DNA of 30,723 nucleotides, taken from contig DUJK01000121.1 in the NCBI GenBank assembly GCA_013329925.1, forward strand, positions 1 to 30,723, given 5' to 3'. The translations under genes and the position numbers were made by a program. Source of the DNA: Candidatus Poseidoniaceae archaeon. Its GTDB lineage: Archaea; Thermoplasmatota; Poseidoniia; Poseidoniales; Poseidoniaceae. This document shows positions 9,473 through 14,072 of the stretch, one piece after another (the stretch's first letter is position 1; each line of letters begins with the position of its first letter). The notes below the pieces were generated by a model that worked only from the letters and a program-made list of their open reading frames with translations, made no database searches and was not told the origin of the DNA.

Positions 9473-10318
9473 ATGACTGAGAAAAGCTTCGAAGAGCGCA
9501 GGTCTGAACTGAGGAAACGTGTTAAATCACAACTTGATTCACCAGAGGAACCAACACATTATTCTGATTTAGATAATAGTGATGAACAAATTCAACAAGA
9601 ATTTATTGTCAAACCGATGATTGATTTAGATTATGATGAGCGCGCTAAACTGCGGATGGTTGCCGCTATTGCGATACTAGTAGGCAGTATTTTAGGAATA
9701 ATAAGTGGTGGAATATTGCTGCAAGGTAATCCCGATGATTTGCTAAACTCTTCTCTGTTTAATGAAGCAGAAACTGTTGATTTAACTGGCCAAGTACTCA
9801 CTGATGACGGAGTAGCCATAAACAATGCAACTATACAGTTGTATGAAGATGATTCAAATTCAGCGATACGAACGGTTCTTACTAACGATAATGGTTACTT
9901 TCAATTGGAAAACGTAAAACCTGAAACGATGGTAATTAGAGTCGTAAAAGATGATTTTACCAGTCTTGAACGGACATTTATTGCCGAAGACGGATTGATG
10001 AGCCCTTTTACTATGAAAAGTGGTAATTCATCAAGTATAATTCAAGAAAACTTCGTAGGTAGTGACGGTGGATGGTCGCTTGAAGCCGCTGTTGCTTTGT
10101 CGACATTTCTTGGAGTGATGACAATTATCACTGGATTTATTGGCATACAGGCATCAGTCGAAACCCGAAGAGCAAGTCGATACAGAAGGACTCAGTACCT
10201 TGCCGGAATTAGTTTGTTTAGTCGCGGTCTTATTTGGATTGGCCCGATTTTAATTTTGGCTGGAATGGCCTTAAATTCGCTAGTAAAAGACCAGTATGAA
10301 GATTATTTAGAGGATTGA
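9473..10318 (+). CDS. Membrane protein with a carboxypeptidase-regulatory-like (transthyretin/Ig-type) extracellular domain
   Basis: TM (MVAAIAILVGSILGIISGGILL), then LTGQVLTDDGVAINNATIQL...TNDNGYFQLENVKP, then further hydrophobic helices. GGAGG SD upstream. Confidence 0.7.
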   Translation: MTEKSFEERRSELRKRVKSQLDSPEEPTHYSDLDNSDEQIQQEFIVKPMIDLDYDERAKLRMVAAIAILVGSILGIISGGILLQGNPDDLLNSSLFNEAETVDLTGQVLTDDGVAINNATIQLYEDDSNSAIRTVLTNDNGYFQLENVKPETMVIRVVKDDFTSLERTFIAEDGLMSPFTMKSGNSSSIIQENFVGSDGGWSLEAAVALSTFLGVMTIITGFIGIQASVETRRASRYRRTQYLAGISLFSRGLIWIGPILILAGMALNSLVKDQYEDYLED

Positions 10319-10320
10319 AC

Positions 10321-11673
10321 ATGTACCTCATTTCAGTCGAAGGAGGAGATGGTTCTGGCAAAGGAGAGGCAGCTAGGATAATTAGTGAAATTTTGAATGA
10401 CTTTCCATTTCCAAAAATACATTCAACTCACGAACCTAGACGGCATAGTGAACTAGGAAAATTAGCCCTTGAATCAGTAATGAAAGGAGATAAAACCCCA
10501 CTACAGGAAGCCGGTCTATTTGCAGCAGACCGATTAGACCATTCGCATACCATAATCAAACCGCTGCTTGAGAAAGGGCATATCGTGGTATCTGATAGAA
10601 ATATACATTCATCATTGATTTACCAAGGAATAGTTGGAGATTTAGGGATTGATGATGTTGTTAAAATGAATGCCGCTGCAATGGTACCAGATTTGGTGAT
10701 TTGGATTGATTGCGATCCTGCAAAAGCGATGAAAAGAATTCAATCTGGAACATTAAGAATGACTAGTAATAAACAGGAATATTTTGAAACTACTGAAATT
10801 CAAAAGCAAATACGCAATGGCTTTAGGGATTTATTATCAGGCAAAATTAAGGTACCCGAGCCATTTGATAAATGTCAGGTTGTTGGTCCGATTTTAAATG
10901 AATCGGGACTTGATGAATTAAAGAAAAAACTAAGTGATACTCTCAGGACTTTCTTTAACAAAAAACCATCTCCCTTAAACGTAGATAGCGACAAAGTAGA
11001 CAGATACTTACTTTCTAAAATGGTCGGCAACTTAGAAACTCAAACTAGACTCCCAGGTGCTCCTAAAAACATGACTGCTATACATGAAGGTTGGCTAGCA
11101 AATACCTCTCCGGCGAAATGGATGGAATTTGCAGAAAATAATTGGCCAAAAAAATCAGCTAAGGAATTTGATGTCCCAATTAATCCTTTTTCATTATCTT
11201 CATGGTCAATTCTTGGTTCTCTATCGATTATTGGAGGTTCAACTGAAGTTCCGAAATTGCATAAACTGCTTGGACCTCACAGAATGATCACTAGAAGACA
11301 TACCCAGCGTTTAGTTAAGTGGTTAGAAGAAGAAAAGTGGATTAACAAACAATTCAATCACGTACCATTTTCCGATGCTAAAGTATTCAAACTTAGAGAA
11401 GAGCGTTTAGGTTTTGGTAGACTCGCCTTGGCAATGTGGCCGCTAAGAACATCGATATCGTCATGGAGAAGGGCTAATCCTGATAGCAAATGGGAAGTAT
11501 GCCTTGAAGAGATTATTCAAAACAATCCAGCAAAAATTCCCGCTTATCAACTAAAAAAATGTGTTATAGACGTCATTGAAAGATTGGTAATACTTACCAG
11601 CGGACATCGGGAATGTCCGGTACCTAGTAGTACAGAAGAACTAATTATTTGGTGGAAAACCTTACCGCCTTAG
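10321..11673 (+). CDS. tmk: Thymidylate (dTMP) kinase with about 235 aa C-terminal extension
   Basis: EGGDGSGK P-loop, HEP, LFAADRLDH, SDRNIHSSLIYQG, PDLVIWID. ATG at 10321 is preferred over TTG at 10315 because GAGG lies 7 nt upstream. Confidence 0.85.
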   Translation: MYLISVEGGDGSGKGEAARIISEILNDFPFPKIHSTHEPRRHSELGKLALESVMKGDKTPLQEAGLFAADRLDHSHTIIKPLLEKGHIVVSDRNIHSSLIYQGIVGDLGIDDVVKMNAAAMVPDLVIWIDCDPAKAMKRIQSGTLRMTSNKQEYFETTEIQKQIRNGFRDLLSGKIKVPEPFDKCQVVGPILNESGLDELKKKLSDTLRTFFNKKPSPLNVDSDKVDRYLLSKMVGNLETQTRLPGAPKNMTAIHEGWLANTSPAKWMEFAENNWPKKSAKEFDVPINPFSLSSWSILGSLSIIGGSTEVPKLHKLLGPHRMITRRHTQRLVKWLEEEKWINKQFNHVPFSDAKVFKLREERLGFGRLALAMWPLRTSISSWRRANPDSKWEVCLEEIIQNNPAKIPAYQLKKCVIDVIERLVILTSGHRECPVPSSTEELIIWWKTLPP

Positions 11674-11674
11674 A

Positions 11675-12415
11675 TTACTCTTCTTCCACTAGTTGAAACT
11701 TCATTCCACCAGGTAAACTAACTTGTGATGCAGATTTGAAATATTTTGACTTAGCCGAATAAGTAGCACTAATCAATACCCCCAATCCAACTCCAAATCC
11801 AATTCCAGTAAGCGGGCGAGTTATGTTATTTGACTCATAAGAAGTTAATAATTGAGTAAAACCATCAATAATCAATGGTAAACAAAGGGCTAGACCGCAC
11901 AAAAGCCAAACTAAGGTTCTACGATTTTTTAGATAAGTCCCCTCTAACCAACTATCTGGCAATAATGACAGACAAGTATCTTTTACAGTCCAACGATTAT
12001 AGCCTTTTCTTGAAAACCAAAAACCTCCAACAGCAAGGCCGAAAAAGATACCTACATCTCTAGTACAAACCGGCATTTGGTTATCGTTTATAATCCAAGA
12101 TCTCTCGTATTTTTGATGACAGTTTAGGTCTCCAAAGCCATAGGCTAATGCTGAGTAAGGATCTAATTCAGTCCATGCAAAATCATTTTGCGAATTATCG
12201 TTTCCTGATGACCAAAGACCATCACTTGTTGCATAATCAAAGGCATTTGCTCTGGCTTCTAAAGGAGGGACTTCTCCAGTGCCAACTAACATAGGTGCAA
12301 CAAAAAATGATATGAAAAAGAAACCTGAAACAAAAAACACCCAATTCCCAACTTTCCTCTCTCGGTCACGAGAGGTCAATCCATTTTTGTTCACACCCAA
12401 CCTAACAAGAAGCAA
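11675..12415 (-). CDS. DUF2085-type integral membrane protein
   Basis: CHQxxERS, MPVCTRDVGIFFG, PLIIDGFTQL, SNNITRPLTGxxFG and several TM helices. The true start may be the GTG at 12394. Confidence 0.8.
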   Translation of the reverse strand: MLLVRLGVNKNGLTSRDRERKVGNWVFFVSGFFFISFFVAPMLVGTGEVPPLEARANAFDYATSDGLWSSGNDNSQNDFAWTELDPYSALAYGFGDLNCHQKYERSWIINDNQMPVCTRDVGIFFGLAVGGFWFSRKGYNRWTVKDTCLSLLPDSWLEGTYLKNRRTLVWLLCGLALCLPLIIDGFTQLLTSYESNNITRPLTGIGFGVGLGVLISATYSAKSKYFKSASQVSLPGGMKFQLVEEE

Positions 12416-12469
12416 CTTATAATTAATTCAGGTCAAAGTATTCTTCTATAATCCGGTTTTGGCCATATT

Positions 12470-13105
12470 ATGGCAGATGAAGATGGTGAGCCAGTTGGAC
12501 TCACCATGGGCTTTCAAGCAGGAGGATTAATCGGCCTTTATCTCGGTTTTTCTCTTGCAACAATTTCTGTACTTACCGACGCTGAGAATATTCAAAGAAC
12601 GATTTCTTTGATGTGTCTTCCACCGTTCATCTTTTCGCTCTTGCTAGGACCATTTTTGGCCAGAAGGAAGAAACCGGTAATCCTTACAAAAGAGCCGCTT
12701 ACTGAAGCGAGAGAAAAATTATCAAAGTACAATGAAGGACAAGGTAAATGGCGTACTCTAAGTCATATCTCAAGTGATGGAATGAACCTAAGAATCGATA
12801 TGCATAATCTTACCAATGTAGAGGGTGTAGTCGACGGTGCCCTAGAGATTGCCGAAACGACTACGGTAAAATTTATTGTTGGCAGAGGAAATCATAAGAG
12901 TTCATCACCAGAATTGAGAAATCGTGTTCTAAAAAGGGTCGAAGACAAAGTAGGAGTATTGCGAAGATCTCGTAAAGCCAAATCTATAGAAGTTAACCCT
13001 ATCGCCTCACATGAGTATAATGCTTACCAAAACAAATTAAACAGAATGCTCTTGATATTACTACCGATTGTTTCCTTTTTAGCTTGGCTAGAGATGAGAA
13101 ACTGA
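12470..13105 (+). CDS. Membrane-anchored Smr (small MutS-related) domain protein
   Basis: Two N-terminal TM helices, IDMHNL (DxH, residues 110-112), FIVGRGNH (GxG, residues 138-140), C-terminal TM helix. Confidence 0.72.
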   Translation: MADEDGEPVGLTMGFQAGGLIGLYLGFSLATISVLTDAENIQRTISLMCLPPFIFSLLLGPFLARRKKPVILTKEPLTEAREKLSKYNEGQGKWRTLSHISSDGMNLRIDMHNLTNVEGVVDGALEIAETTTVKFIVGRGNHKSSSPELRNRVLKRVEDKVGVLRRSRKAKSIEVNPIASHEYNAYQNKLNRMLLILLPIVSFLAWLEMRN

Positions 13106-13154
13106 GTAAACTAAGTTCAATAGATATTATTTATTCTCTACAATTAGTAAGGGC

Positions 13155-14072
13155 ATGCGCGAGGTTACCCTGTTTTGGAAAAGAACACGCCTTGCCAAAC
13201 TAGACATAGGAGGTATTGTCGACATATTTACCCAACTAGAGTTTGTATCTTATGTCAAAAGAGTTCCCAAAGATATCAGAATTATTCTAAAAGCAAATTT
13301 TTCCGAAGGCCATTCGCCAAAAGACATGAAGGAACTTCATTTCTTGGAGTTACTAGAAGTAATTCTTGAACCAAAAGATAGCTCAGATAGCTATATATTA
13401 CTGGCTAGGATAAACCACTCGGTATCTAATTTGAATGCTAGGACCAATGGGACAAGTGCAGTACCAGGTTGTAGATTAGATGGAGAAGGACTTACTTACA
13501 TAATTCAAGGACCGCCACTGAAACTACGTTTGGTTTCTACACTGGCAAGGTTAATCTCTCAGCCCGATCGAATTAGCGCTAGAAGTTTAGATTTCAATTC
13601 TACTTTAGACCGCTCAGTTCTTAATACAAAACAGTTGAAATTGGCAAAATATGCTTATGATAGGGGGTATTTTGACGTCCCTAAGAGGGTAAGAATTTCT
13701 GATTTAGCGACTGATATAGGCTTAGCAAGAGCCACAATTTCAGAACATTTGGCTAAGATTGAATCAATCTTGATGGATGATATGTTCTCCTCATTCGATG
13801 AAATTTACACCGATCCAAAGGTAGTAAAAAGCCTAATAGAAACCGTAGTCTTAGAATCCGAAAGTGAAGAACTGGACATTACGGATAACATGCTGTATAT
13901 TCTAAACAATATCAAAAAATCAATAAAAACTCAGTTAGGTAATTTAACTGAGGATTTGTATGAGGGTATTACTGGTGAGGAAATGATTGAATTAGCTGTC
14001 AAGGAACACCAAGAAAATCTTAGTTATATCGATGATGTAATCGAGGAAAAACTAAAATCTTCATCGAAATAA
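13155..14072 (+). CDS. Bacterio-opsin-activator-type HTH-10 transcriptional regulator with acidic C-terminal extension
   Basis: LNTKQLKLAKYAYDRGYFDVPKRVRISDLATDIGLARATISEHLAKIE matches the archaeal HTH_10 signature. Confidence 0.88.
   Translation: MREVTLFWKRTRLAKLDIGGIVDIFTQLEFVSYVKRVPKDIRIILKANFSEGHSPKDMKELHFLELLEVILEPKDSSDSYILLARINHSVSNLNARTNGTSAVPGCRLDGEGLTYIIQGPPLKLRLVSTLARLISQPDRISARSLDFNSTLDRSVLNTKQLKLAKYAYDRGYFDVPKRVRISDLATDIGLARATISEHLAKIESILMDDMFSSFDEIYTDPKVVKSLIETVVLESESEELDITDNMLYILNNIKKSIKTQLGNLTEDLYEGITGEEMIELAVKEHQENLSYIDDVIEEKLKSSSK

What the first reader, a model, noticed from the sequence alone, without database searches (positions are those of the whole stretch)
12470..13105. 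Membrane-tethered Smr endonuclease: possible translocon-side mRNA/ribosome-rescue nuclease
The predicted topology is TM1-TM2-(RRKK, positive-inside)-Smr domain-TM3, which holds the nuclease in a cytoplasmic loop pinned at both ends. The DxH (D110-M-H112, codon at 12797) and GxG (G138-R-G140) motifs associated with active Smr RNases are intact. Characterised Smr nucleases (E. coli SmrB, yeast Cue2, worm NONU-1) are soluble and cut mRNA on stalled or collided ribosomes. A membrane-integral version could clear ribosomes stalled at the Sec translocon in an organism that exports very large surface proteins. Alternatives are membrane-localised RNA decay or antiviral defence.
Basis: partly seen in the sequence, partly recalled or inferred. 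Interest (0 to 1): 0.78.

Follow-up and report, generated by a model that had tools for sequence, protein, structure and literature searches.

The report
Membrane-anchored Smr protein of Poseidoniales
This core gene of the abundant ocean archaea Marine Group II encodes a small nuclease-type (Smr) domain held on the inner face of the cell membrane by helices on both sides; I found no description of this arrangement, and what the domain cuts or binds is untested.

Summary
ORF 12470-13105 (+) encodes 211 aa with two N-terminal hydrophobic helices, RRKK, a basic soluble domain and a C-terminal hydrophobic helix.

The domain is a divergent Smr domain. The sequence itself misses Pfam Smr. Its Thalassarchaeaceae orthologues pass the Smr gathering score, and the two types align by hhalign at 97% (E 9e-11). 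The domain model (pLDDT 91) matches Smr structures best (Z 7.0-7.4).

The gene is single-copy and restricted to Poseidoniales: 89/89 Poseidoniaceae, 48/66 Thalassarchaeaceae, 0/43 MGIII. It always lies head-to-head with a DUF2085 membrane gene. Charge distribution places the domain in the cytoplasm.

The functional reading (mRNA cleavage on ribosomes stalled at the translocon) is untested and only one option:
- Two sister genera kept the protein but lost DxH and GxG.
- Streamlined genera deleted the gene.
- No neighbour points to Sec or ribosomes.
- No ribosome-recruiting module was found.

I rate it a new architectural variant of a known domain family with unknown substrate. First readers noted this family four times on other genomes of this scan, and none was followed up.

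The parts
12470..13105 (+). CDS of the membrane-anchored Smr-domain protein (211 aa, P0001)
   Evidence: Orthologues found in 137 of 155 other Poseidoniales genomes searched.
12509..12577 (+). hydrophobic helix 1 (about residues 14-36)
   Evidence: Hydropathy scan. AF2 helix 11-36.
12599..12661 (+). hydrophobic helix 2 (about residues 44-64)
   Evidence: Hydropathy scan. AF2 helix 41-64.
12662..12673 (+). RRKK, positive cluster directly after helix 2
   Evidence: Sequence. Conserved as R/K-rich in relatives.
12689..13009 (+). soluble Smr-type domain with N-terminal helix and extra beta-strand (residues 74-180)
   Evidence: Domain model pLDDT 91.3, pTM 0.84. The best structural matches are Smr domains: 2vkc Z 7.4, 8r5o_G Z 7.2, 2zqe Z 7.0. 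hhalign to Pfam-positive orthologues gives 97%, E 8.8e-11.
12734..12766 (+). family-specific motif E89-G-x-G-x-W94-R95-x-L-S-H99 just before the extra strand that pairs with beta-1
   Evidence: W94 is invariant and H99 nearly so across the whole family, including members that lost DxH.
12797..12805 (+). DxH motif (D110-M-H112) at the end of beta-1
   Evidence: Sequence. In register with the DLH of canonical orthologues and of N4BP2.
12881..12889 (+). GxG motif (G138-R-G140) after beta-2. The canonical T/H before it is V137 here.
   Evidence: Sequence. G138 and G140 are at least 99% conserved in the lineage that keeps DxH, while the central residue varies.
12917..12919 (+). R150 of the LRxxV motif at the start of helix alpha-2, invariant in the family
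   Evidence: Aligns with the K of IKPAV in the N4BP2 Smr domain.
13043..13096 (+). hydrophobic helix 3, C-terminal anchor (about residues 192-209)
   Evidence: Hydropathy scan. AF2 helix 181-210.
11675..12415 (-). divergently transcribed DUF2085 membrane protein, conserved head-to-head neighbour (context; no functional link shown)
   Evidence: Pfam DUF2085 E 3.5e-24. Adjacent in 20/20 loci from 12 genera, and the coordinates also show adjacency.

Best explanation
The gene encodes a small integral membrane protein. Its only globular part is a divergent Smr (small MutS-related) nuclease-type domain that faces the cytoplasm and is pinned to the membrane by a helical hairpin in front and a tail anchor behind.

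Shown: the architecture, the fold, homology to Smr, the orientation by charge, the restriction to Poseidoniales, and purifying selection.

Inferred: in this lineage the DxH, GxG and LRxxV residues are kept. DxH is needed for mRNA cleavage in SmrB and Cue2. So the domain most likely still binds and nicks RNA, and tethering restricts it to RNA that comes within reach of the membrane. The most plausible substrate is mRNA on ribosomes that are translating membrane or secreted proteins and have stalled or collided. The cleaved mRNA would then enter the Pelota/ABCE1 and RqcH-type rescue route that these archaea encode.

The family as a whole must also have a function that does not need catalysis, such as binding or sensing, because two sister genera retain it without the catalytic motifs.
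For: - Architecture: three hydrophobic segments flank a basic domain.
- Fold: the domain-only model has pLDDT 91.3. The top four structural matches in an all-against-PDB search are Smr domains: N4BP2 2vkc Z 7.4, PAP2/pTAC2 SMR 8r5o_G and 9epc_G Z 7.2/7.0, and MutS2 2zqe Z 7.0 with rmsd 2.3 and 23% identity.
- AlphaFold DB: beyond the family itself, hits are almost all Smr proteins, and a 62%-identical fragment is already named 'Smr domain-containing protein'.
- Homology chain: the Poseidoniaceae-type profile aligns to the Thalassarchaeaceae-type profile at 97.0%, E 8.8e-11, with W/H, DxH, GRG and R in register. Thalassarchaeaceae-type and genus g6 orthologues pass the Pfam Smr gathering score at 27.0-36.4 bits. 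A profile of these orthologues plus three soluble Smr proteins (A4) hits the N4BP2 Smr domain at E 2.6e-5.
- Orientation: the domain holds 18-29 K+R against 0-2 in the loop between helices 1 and 2. Four-helix relatives end in an R/K-rich tail.
- Motifs under constraint here: G138, G140, S144 and R150 are at least 98% conserved among the 168 sequences that keep DxH, and the centre of GxG is free, as reported for SmrB (10.1101/2021.08.16.456513).
- DxH is required for cleavage in SmrB and Cue2 (PMC11806357).
- The gene is core and single-copy: 89/89 and 48/66 genomes. dN/dS is about 0.05-0.09.
- An NFACT/RqcH homologue is present in the own genome and in 150/156 genomes of the order, so a downstream rescue route exists.
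- No other Smr match was found in the own genome, which is 76% complete.
Against: - No nuclease activity, RNA binding or ribosome association has been measured for any member.
- The sequence itself gives no Pfam or NCBIfam hit at E <= 1.
- The canonical T/H before GxG is V. The H of the G-x-G-x-H-S motif is present in this protein (H142) but is not conserved even within the genus.
- Genera g3 and g7 keep the protein with DxH replaced (VSLSN, IKLRN) and the GxG loop deleted, and they have no second Smr gene. Catalysis is therefore dispensable for whatever keeps the gene.
- Genera g15 and g163, and most of g19, have lost the gene cleanly.
- No ribosome-docking module comparable to the SmrB hook or the CUE/UBA domains was found.
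- No conserved neighbour is linked to translation or secretion.
- Smr domains also nick DNA in vitro (PMC3200294), so the substrate class is open.
Confidence: 0.4

Rival explanations
1. Non-catalytic membrane anchor or sensor. The Smr domain serves as an RNA-, ribosome- or protein-binding module, as in SmrA or the Smr domain of B. subtilis MutS2, which binds collided ribosomes without cutting mRNA. The DxH in this lineage would be a remnant.
For: - Genera g3 and g7 retain the gene (10/10 and 2/2 genomes) with DxH and GxG destroyed, yet W94, R95, H99 and R150 are fully conserved.
- The most conserved block of the family is the family-specific EGxGxWRxLSH, not the catalytic motif.
- Loss of DxH with retained function is documented for MutS2 and SmrA (PMC11806357; 10.1101/2021.08.16.456513).
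Against: - In the 168 sequences of the window's type, G138 and G140 are at least 99% conserved, and these sequences carry DxH by selection. The Thalassarchaeaceae forms keep the full canonical TVDLH / TGRGxHS set. That is not expected for a decaying remnant.
Confidence: 0.25
2. General membrane-localised mRNA decay. The tethered Smr domain initiates bulk mRNA turnover by endonucleolytic cuts, analogous to membrane-bound RNase Y or RNase E of bacteria, and independent of ribosome stalling.
For: - Same architecture and motif evidence as for the main explanation.
- The Smr fold resembles the DNase I-like subdomain of RNase E: 6x2d_B Z 5.6 (PMC3200294).
- No ribosome-recruiting module was found.
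Against: - A bulk-decay enzyme would be hard to lose, yet several genera have deleted the gene and two have inactivated the motifs.
- Every Smr RNase characterised in the papers read acts on ribosome-bound mRNA (PMC11806357).
Confidence: 0.13
3. Membrane-tethered DNA nickase. It would act on DNA at the membrane (incoming DNA, recombination intermediates, chromosome attachment), as the MutS2, N4BP2 and YdaL Smr domains nick branched DNA in vitro.
For: - All three Smr subfamilies nick DNA in vitro (PMC3200294).
- Earlier follow-ups in this scan report a membrane-embedded Cas4-type DNA nuclease as another core gene of Poseidoniales (I did not test this). That would fit a theme of nucleases held at the membrane.
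Against: - There is no MutS ATPase or other DNA-repair domain.
- There is no defence or phage family match and no relative in viral contigs.
- The gene is a syntenic core gene, not part of an island.
- The in vivo roles established for SmrB, Cue2, NONU-1 and MutS2 are on ribosomes (PMC11806357).
Confidence: 0.12
4. The loop is an IF3-C-like ribosome-binding domain rather than an Smr domain.
For: Family profiles hit the C-terminal domain of Thermus IF3 as the best PDB sequence match: E 0.013 for A1 and 0.0038 for A2. IF3-C also appears among the structural matches: 2m71 Z 5.5, 2ife Z 5.0.
Against: - Smr structures rank above IF3-C (Z 7.0-7.4 against 5.0-5.5).
- Eight of 24 family domains hit Pfam Smr (best 6.5e-9) and no IF3_C match was listed.
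- The canonical orthologues carry DLH and TGRGxHS.
- The Smr and IF3-C folds are known to resemble each other (PMC3200294).
Confidence: 0.03

Closest known systems
Family-2 (eukaryote-type, TGxG) Smr domains: human N4BP2/B3BP, yeast Cue2, C. elegans NONU-1
   Same: - Same fold: 2vkc Z 7.4, 85 residues, 18% identity.
- The canonical MGII orthologues share DLH, TGRGxHS and I(K/R)PxV with N4BP2, at E 2.6e-5.
- DxH, GxG and the basic residue are kept in this protein.
   Different: - No CUE, UBA or other ubiquitin-reading domain.
- Integral membrane protein with helices on both sides of the domain.
- V instead of T before GxG.
- An extra N-terminal helix, the WRxLSH motif and an added strand.
- Archaeal and restricted to one order.
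E. coli SmrB (collision-sensing mRNA endonuclease)
   Same: Small protein consisting of an Smr domain plus an N-terminal extension, with DxH and GxG (10.1101/2021.08.16.456513). It appears among the structural matches: 7qgr_v Z 4.7.
   Different: - SmrB is soluble, and its N-terminal hook binds uS2. Here the N-terminal part is a transmembrane hairpin.
- There is no '--xxxa' helix motif.
- Sequence similarity is too low for direct detection.
DxH-less Smr domains: E. coli SmrA/YdaL and the Smr domain of Firmicute MutS2
   Same: They are a precedent for Smr domains that keep a role after the catalytic motif is lost (PMC11806357). Genera g3 and g7 of this family did the same. YdaL 3qd7 gives Z 5.4.
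   Different: The window's own protein keeps DxH. The g3 and g7 forms also lost GxG, which MutS2 keeps. There are no MutS ATPase or KOW domains.
Membrane-tethered bacterial endoribonucleases RNase Y and RNase E (analogy only)
   Same: A nuclease held at the cytoplasmic face of the membrane (my own knowledge of these enzymes). The RNase E DNase I-like subdomain shares the fold class: 6x2d_B Z 5.6.
   Different: Unrelated catalytic domains and anchors. No homology is claimed.
Bacterial IF3 C-terminal domain
   Same: Same beta-alpha-beta-alpha-beta-beta fold class and a weak profile match, E 0.004-0.013.
   Different: IF3-C has no DxH/GxG nuclease motif. Structural scores are lower than for Smr. 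There is no IF3 N-terminal domain, and archaea do not use IF3 (my own knowledge).

Membership tests
Smr domain (Pfam PF01713) | Direct match of this sequence to the Pfam Smr model at or above the gathering score (25.7 bits) | tested here: not met
   No Pfam hit at E <= 1 for the whole protein or the domain alone. No match was found in the six-frame search of the own genome. I read this as a sensitivity limit, given the next row.
Smr domain (Pfam PF01713) | Homology to bona fide Smr domains shown by profile methods | tested here: met
   hhalign of the window-type domain profile against the Thalassarchaeaceae-type profile gives 97.0%, E 8.8e-11. Thalassarchaeaceae-type and genus g6 orthologues pass the Smr gathering score at 36.4, 30.5, 28.6 and 27.0 bits, and 8/24 domains match, best 6.5e-9. 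Profile A4 of those orthologues plus three soluble Smr proteins hits the N4BP2 Smr domain at 2.6e-5 and YdaL at 0.0077.
Smr domain (Pfam PF01713) | beta-alpha-beta-alpha-beta-beta two-layer fold of Smr domains | tested here: met
   Domain model pLDDT 91.3 with elements E33-37, H44-54, E59-63, H76-87, E93-95, E99-102. The best matches are Smr structures, Z 7.0-7.4. All Z values are below 8, so the fold match alone would be weak.
Smr domain (Pfam PF01713) | DxH motif at the end of beta-1 | tested here: met
   D110-M-H112, in register with DLH of the canonical orthologues and N4BP2.
Smr domain (Pfam PF01713) | (T/H)GxG loop after beta-2 | tested here: inconclusive
   G138-R-G140 is present and at least 99% conserved in this lineage. 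The preceding T/H is V137. The following H/S is only partly kept: H142 is present here but not in congeners.
Smr domain (Pfam PF01713) | Endonuclease activity on RNA or DNA | not testable with these tools
   Needs a biochemical assay of the recombinant domain.
Collision-sensing Smr nucleases (SmrB / Cue2 / NONU-1 type) | A module that recruits the Smr domain to ribosomes (SmrB N-terminal uS2 hook; CUE/UBA domains) | tested here: not met
   No further Pfam or NCBIfam domain was found. Outside the Smr domain there are only hydrophobic helices and one short helix.
Collision-sensing Smr nucleases (SmrB / Cue2 / NONU-1 type) | Preferential binding to collided ribosomes and cleavage of the mRNA between them | not testable with these tools
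   Needs ribosome binding assays or cryo-EM.
MutS2 | MutS-type ABC ATPase, clamp and KOW domains N-terminal to Smr | tested here: not met
   The protein has 211 aa and no such domains.
IF3 C-terminal domain (PF00707) | Sequence match to IF3_C and the two-domain IF3 architecture | tested here: inconclusive
   There is a weak profile match to Thermus IF3-C, E 0.004-0.013. No IF3_C family was listed among the Pfam matches of 24 members. Structural Z of 5.0-5.5 is below the Smr values. There is no IF3 N-terminal domain.

The most novel reading that the evidence does not exclude
This is the no-go-decay endonuclease of Marine Group II archaea. It would be a collision-sensing Smr nuclease built into the membrane that cuts the mRNA of ribosomes stalled while inserting or exporting proteins. 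That would make it the first archaeal mRNA-surveillance nuclease and the first translocon-side one in any domain of life.
Probability: 0.18. Interest if true: 0.85.

Novelty: new variant of a known kind. Interest (0 to 1): 0.55.

Why it matters
[quoted passage not shown] A later paper placed them in 'a few archaeal lineages' (10.1101/2021.08.16.456513). All characterised members in the papers I read are soluble.

Here an Smr domain is a core, single-copy, order-specific gene of one of the most abundant archaeal groups of the surface ocean, and it is built into the membrane. If it is an active RNase on membrane-bound ribosomes, it would identify an endonuclease for archaeal mRNA surveillance, for which I know of none. 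It would also show how quality control can be localised by tethering.

The family also offers a natural series: canonical motifs, then partly diverged motifs, then motifs lost. That series could separate the catalytic role of an Smr domain from its binding role. Without biochemistry it remains an annotated architecture with an open function.

Tried and rejected
- Pfam and NCBIfam on the sequence itself: no hit.
- phmmer of P0001 and of one canonical orthologue domain against PDB sequences: only chance-level matches.
- Foldseek against PDB, with the full-length and the domain model: nothing at E <= 0.001. Smr, SepF and IF3 rows were mixed.
- Complex prediction of the DUF2085 neighbour with this protein: no answer (score 0.00). 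This is no evidence either way.
- Expression: contigs from four RNA-library runs laid on 11600-13200 cover the DUF2085 gene and 13038-13200 only. The body of the ORF is not covered, which with contigs shows nothing about transcription.
- Defence or mobile-element reading: no PADLOC or PHROGs family, and no relative in viral contigs with the single-protein query.
- Co-loss test with the RqcH/NFACT homologue: it is present in 150/156 genomes, including genera that lack the Smr gene, so the test is uninformative.
- Outgroup search with the canonical domain of an orthologue: only MGII proteins were returned, so I could not place the origin of the domain.
- Literature: no paper in the library pairs 'Smr domain' with a membrane-anchored protein in a relevant sense. 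DUF2085 is only mentioned in passing in three papers.

Full report
**Observation.** The window carries an ATG-initiated ORF at 12470-13105 on the + strand, 211 aa. A 19-residue hydropathy scan gives three hydrophobic segments, at about residues 14-36, 44-64 and 192-209. RRKK (65-68) follows the second segment directly, and a 126-residue stretch with 25 K+R against 15 D+E lies between helices 2 and 3. D110-M-H112 is encoded at 12797-12805 and G138-R-G140 at 12881-12889. The neighbouring genes and the named homologues place the window in Poseidoniaceae, Marine Group II archaea.

**What the soluble part is.** That support comes from four directions.

1. An AlphaFold2 model of residues 74-180, built on 24 family sequences, has pLDDT 91.3 and pTM 0.84. 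It shows helix - short helix - strand - strand - helix - strand - helix - strand - strand.
2. In an all-against-representatives structural search, the four best PDB matches are Smr domains: N4BP2 2vkc (Z 7.4, 85 residues, rmsd 3.1), the SMR domain of the plastid polymerase subunit in 8r5o_G and 9epc_G (Z 7.2/7.0), and Thermus MutS2 2zqe (Z 7.0, rmsd 2.3, 23% identity). SepF (6.3), IF3-C (5.5), YdaL (5.4) and SmrB (4.7) follow. All Z values are under 8, so this alone would be weak.
3. AlphaFold DB searches return almost only Smr proteins beyond the family itself. A 62%-identical fragment is already named 'Smr domain-containing protein'.
4. Orthologues in the sister family Thalassarchaeaceae and in one Poseidoniaceae genus (g6) carry textbook motifs: TVDLHDL, IVTGRGxHS, IRPxV, GSITLRP. 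They pass the Pfam Smr gathering score at 36.4, 30.5, 28.6 and 27.0 bits. A profile of the window's type aligns to a profile of the Thalassarchaeaceae type at 97.0% probability, E 8.8e-11, with W94/H99, DxH, GRG and R150 in register. A profile (A4) of those canonical orthologues plus three soluble Smr proteins hits the N4BP2 Smr domain in the PDB at E 2.6e-5.

Family profiles also touch Thermus IF3-C at E 0.004-0.013. The Smr and IF3-C folds are known to resemble each other (PMC3200294), and both the motifs and the structural ranking favour Smr.

**Family and distribution.** About 318 clusters at 90% identity exist, but only 48 representatives at 50% identity. All named ones are marine Thermoplasmatota 'hypothetical proteins'. 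With a profile spanning both types the gene is found as follows:

| Group | Genomes with the gene / searched |
|---|---|
| Poseidoniaceae | 89/89 |
| Thalassarchaeaceae | 48/66 |
| MGIII (f3) | 0/43 |
| Rest of the phylum sample | 0 of about 305 (searched with profile A1 only) |

Within Thalassarchaeaceae it was not found in genus g15 (0/7) or g163 (0/3), and in only 1/6 of g19. It is found once per genome. In genomes without it the locus is cleanly shorter, with SufB/SufD-like genes abutting the DUF2085 gene. Against congeners, dN/dS is about 0.05-0.09, with dS saturated and few usable pairs.

**Motif history.** The family shows three states.

- Thalassarchaeaceae and genus g6 have canonical Smr motifs and four hydrophobic helices (two before and two after the domain).
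- The window's genus and g2, g4 and g5 keep DxH, GxG and the LRxxV arginine. In the 168 sequences of this type, G138, G140 and R150 are at least 98-99% conserved and the centre of GxG is free. The residue before GxG has changed from T to V, the HS after it is lost, and the last helix is gone, leaving three helices.
- Genera g3 and g7 have replaced DxH (VSLSN, IKLRN, IKILD) and deleted the GxG loop. They still keep the gene in 10/10 and 2/2 genomes, and no second Smr gene was detected.

Across all three states W94 and R150 are invariant and H99 is nearly so. The block EGxGxWRxLSH lies just before an extra strand that pairs antiparallel with beta-1. By geometry H99 should therefore sit near the DxH end of beta-1. 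That last point is inference, because I could not inspect coordinates.

**Topology.** The domain holds 18-29 K+R in every lineage, while the loop between helices 1 and 2 holds 0-2. The four-helix forms end in R/K-rich tails such as SYRERV and TNKGR. By the positive-inside rule the domain and the N-terminus are cytoplasmic. In the three-helix form of this window the last few residues are outside. The N-terminus is acidic and has no signal-peptide character. No dedicated topology predictor was available.

**Context.** The order (CarboxypepD_reg protein) - (Tmk fusion) - (DUF2085, opposite strand) - (Smr gene) is kept in 20/20 loci from 12 genera of both families. Downstream genes (HTH_10, PCMT, HEAT, M61) are kept only in part of Poseidoniaceae. 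The DUF2085 gene is head-to-head with the Smr gene, with 54 bp between the starts here. It also persists in genera that lost the Smr gene, and distant homologues occur in MGIII, giving 196/201 genomes. The linkage may therefore simply mark where the Smr gene arose. Nothing in the neighbourhood is related to Sec, SRP or the ribosome. There is no match to defence or phage families and no relative in viral contigs.

**Mechanism.** The following is shown: a cytoplasm-facing Smr-type domain pinned to the membrane at both ends, under purifying selection, with the residues needed for cleavage in SmrB and Cue2 present (DxH; PMC11806357; 10.1101/2021.08.16.456513).

The following is inferred: it binds and probably nicks RNA that comes close to the membrane. 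The characterised in vivo roles of Smr proteins (SmrB, Cue2, NONU-1, MutS2) are on stalled or collided ribosomes. These archaea also encode an RqcH/NFACT homologue. The most economical model is therefore cleavage of mRNA on membrane-engaged stalled ribosomes.

I give that family of models 0.40, and the specific translocon-collision version about 0.18. The rivals are:

- a non-catalytic binding or sensing role (0.25), suggested by the motif-less genera and by the dominance of the WRxLSH block;
- bulk membrane-localised mRNA decay (0.13);
- DNA nicking at the membrane (0.12);
- an IF3-C-like domain (0.03).

**Comparison and novelty.** In sequence and structure the domain is closest to the eukaryote-type TGxG Smr domains (N4BP2, Cue2 class). 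It differs from every characterised Smr protein I could read about in four ways: it is an integral membrane protein, it lacks any known ribosome- or ubiquitin-reading module, it carries a family-specific N-terminal motif and strand, and it is archaeal. A shape search of ESM Atlas cluster representatives found the full-length architecture only in Thermoplasmatota clusters. Full-text searches found no description of a membrane-anchored Smr protein. I class it as a new architectural variant of a known domain family.

First readers noted this same family on four other genomes of this scan, and none was followed up. Follow-ups on other Poseidoniales windows report further normally soluble proteins built into the membrane, including a Cas4-type nuclease and winged-helix regulators. 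I did not test those claims. If they hold, tethering may be a lineage habit rather than something specific to ribosome rescue.

**Limits.**
- No activity, localisation or expression was measured.
- RNA-library contigs cover only the neighbour gene and the last 70 bases of the ORF.
- The complex prediction with DUF2085 gave no answer.
- The own genome is 76% complete.

Noticed in passing
window 11675-12415 (-): The DUF2085 membrane protein has more than 40 invariant residues across 20 Poseidoniales orthologues. Many are polar and lie in or near the hydrophobic segments: GDLNCHQKxERSW, NQMPVCxRDxGI, NRWT, DGFTQLLTSYES. That is enzyme-like conservation in a family with no known function. It is found in 196/201 genomes of the class.
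   Followed up: partly
window 10315-11673 (+): A thymidylate kinase domain (residues 8-175) is fused to a C-terminal extension of about 275 aa with no Pfam match. The fusion and its position next to the DUF2085 gene are conserved in all 20 loci of both Poseidoniales families (40-65% identity).
   Followed up: partly
L027 1276-1743 (G234, same genus); L026 1495-1752 (MGIII); L023 1438-1764: A few genomes carry a second, small soluble Smr protein of a different type (IDLHG/N ... F/I-HG-x-N/H-x-GT-A/V-I/L-R/K-D-W/Y). It was seen in 2/21 genomes of the window's genus and 5/5 genomes of MGIII genus g22 (5/10 in family f3). These may be mobile or viral in origin.
   Followed up: no
L061-L064 (G149, G451, G471, G063): In Thalassarchaeaceae genera that lack the Smr gene, SufB/SufD-like genes lie directly beside the DUF2085 gene. 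These genomes are the small ones (1.3-1.6 Mb), which suggests loss by streamlining.
   Followed up: partly
window 12416-12469: The 54-bp gap between the divergent starts holds two A/T-rich TATA-like elements: TTATAATTAA at 12419-12428 and TTCTATAAT at 12444-12452. The second lies about 20 nt before the ATG, which would fit a leaderless transcript. This is read from the sequence only.
   Followed up: no
window 13038-13200: One contig from an RNA library (run X2, 403 nt, 5 mismatches over 163 laid bases) bridges the 3' end of the Smr ORF, the 49-bp gap and the start of the HTH_10 regulator gene. It does not prove a joint transcript.
   Followed up: no
   Followed up: no
hit 5 (no locus): The 202-aa uncharacterised Treponema pallidum protein TP_0674 aligned structurally over query residues 1-176 (E 0.016). 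It might be a bacterial protein with helices in front of an Smr-like domain. I could not fetch it.
   Followed up: no
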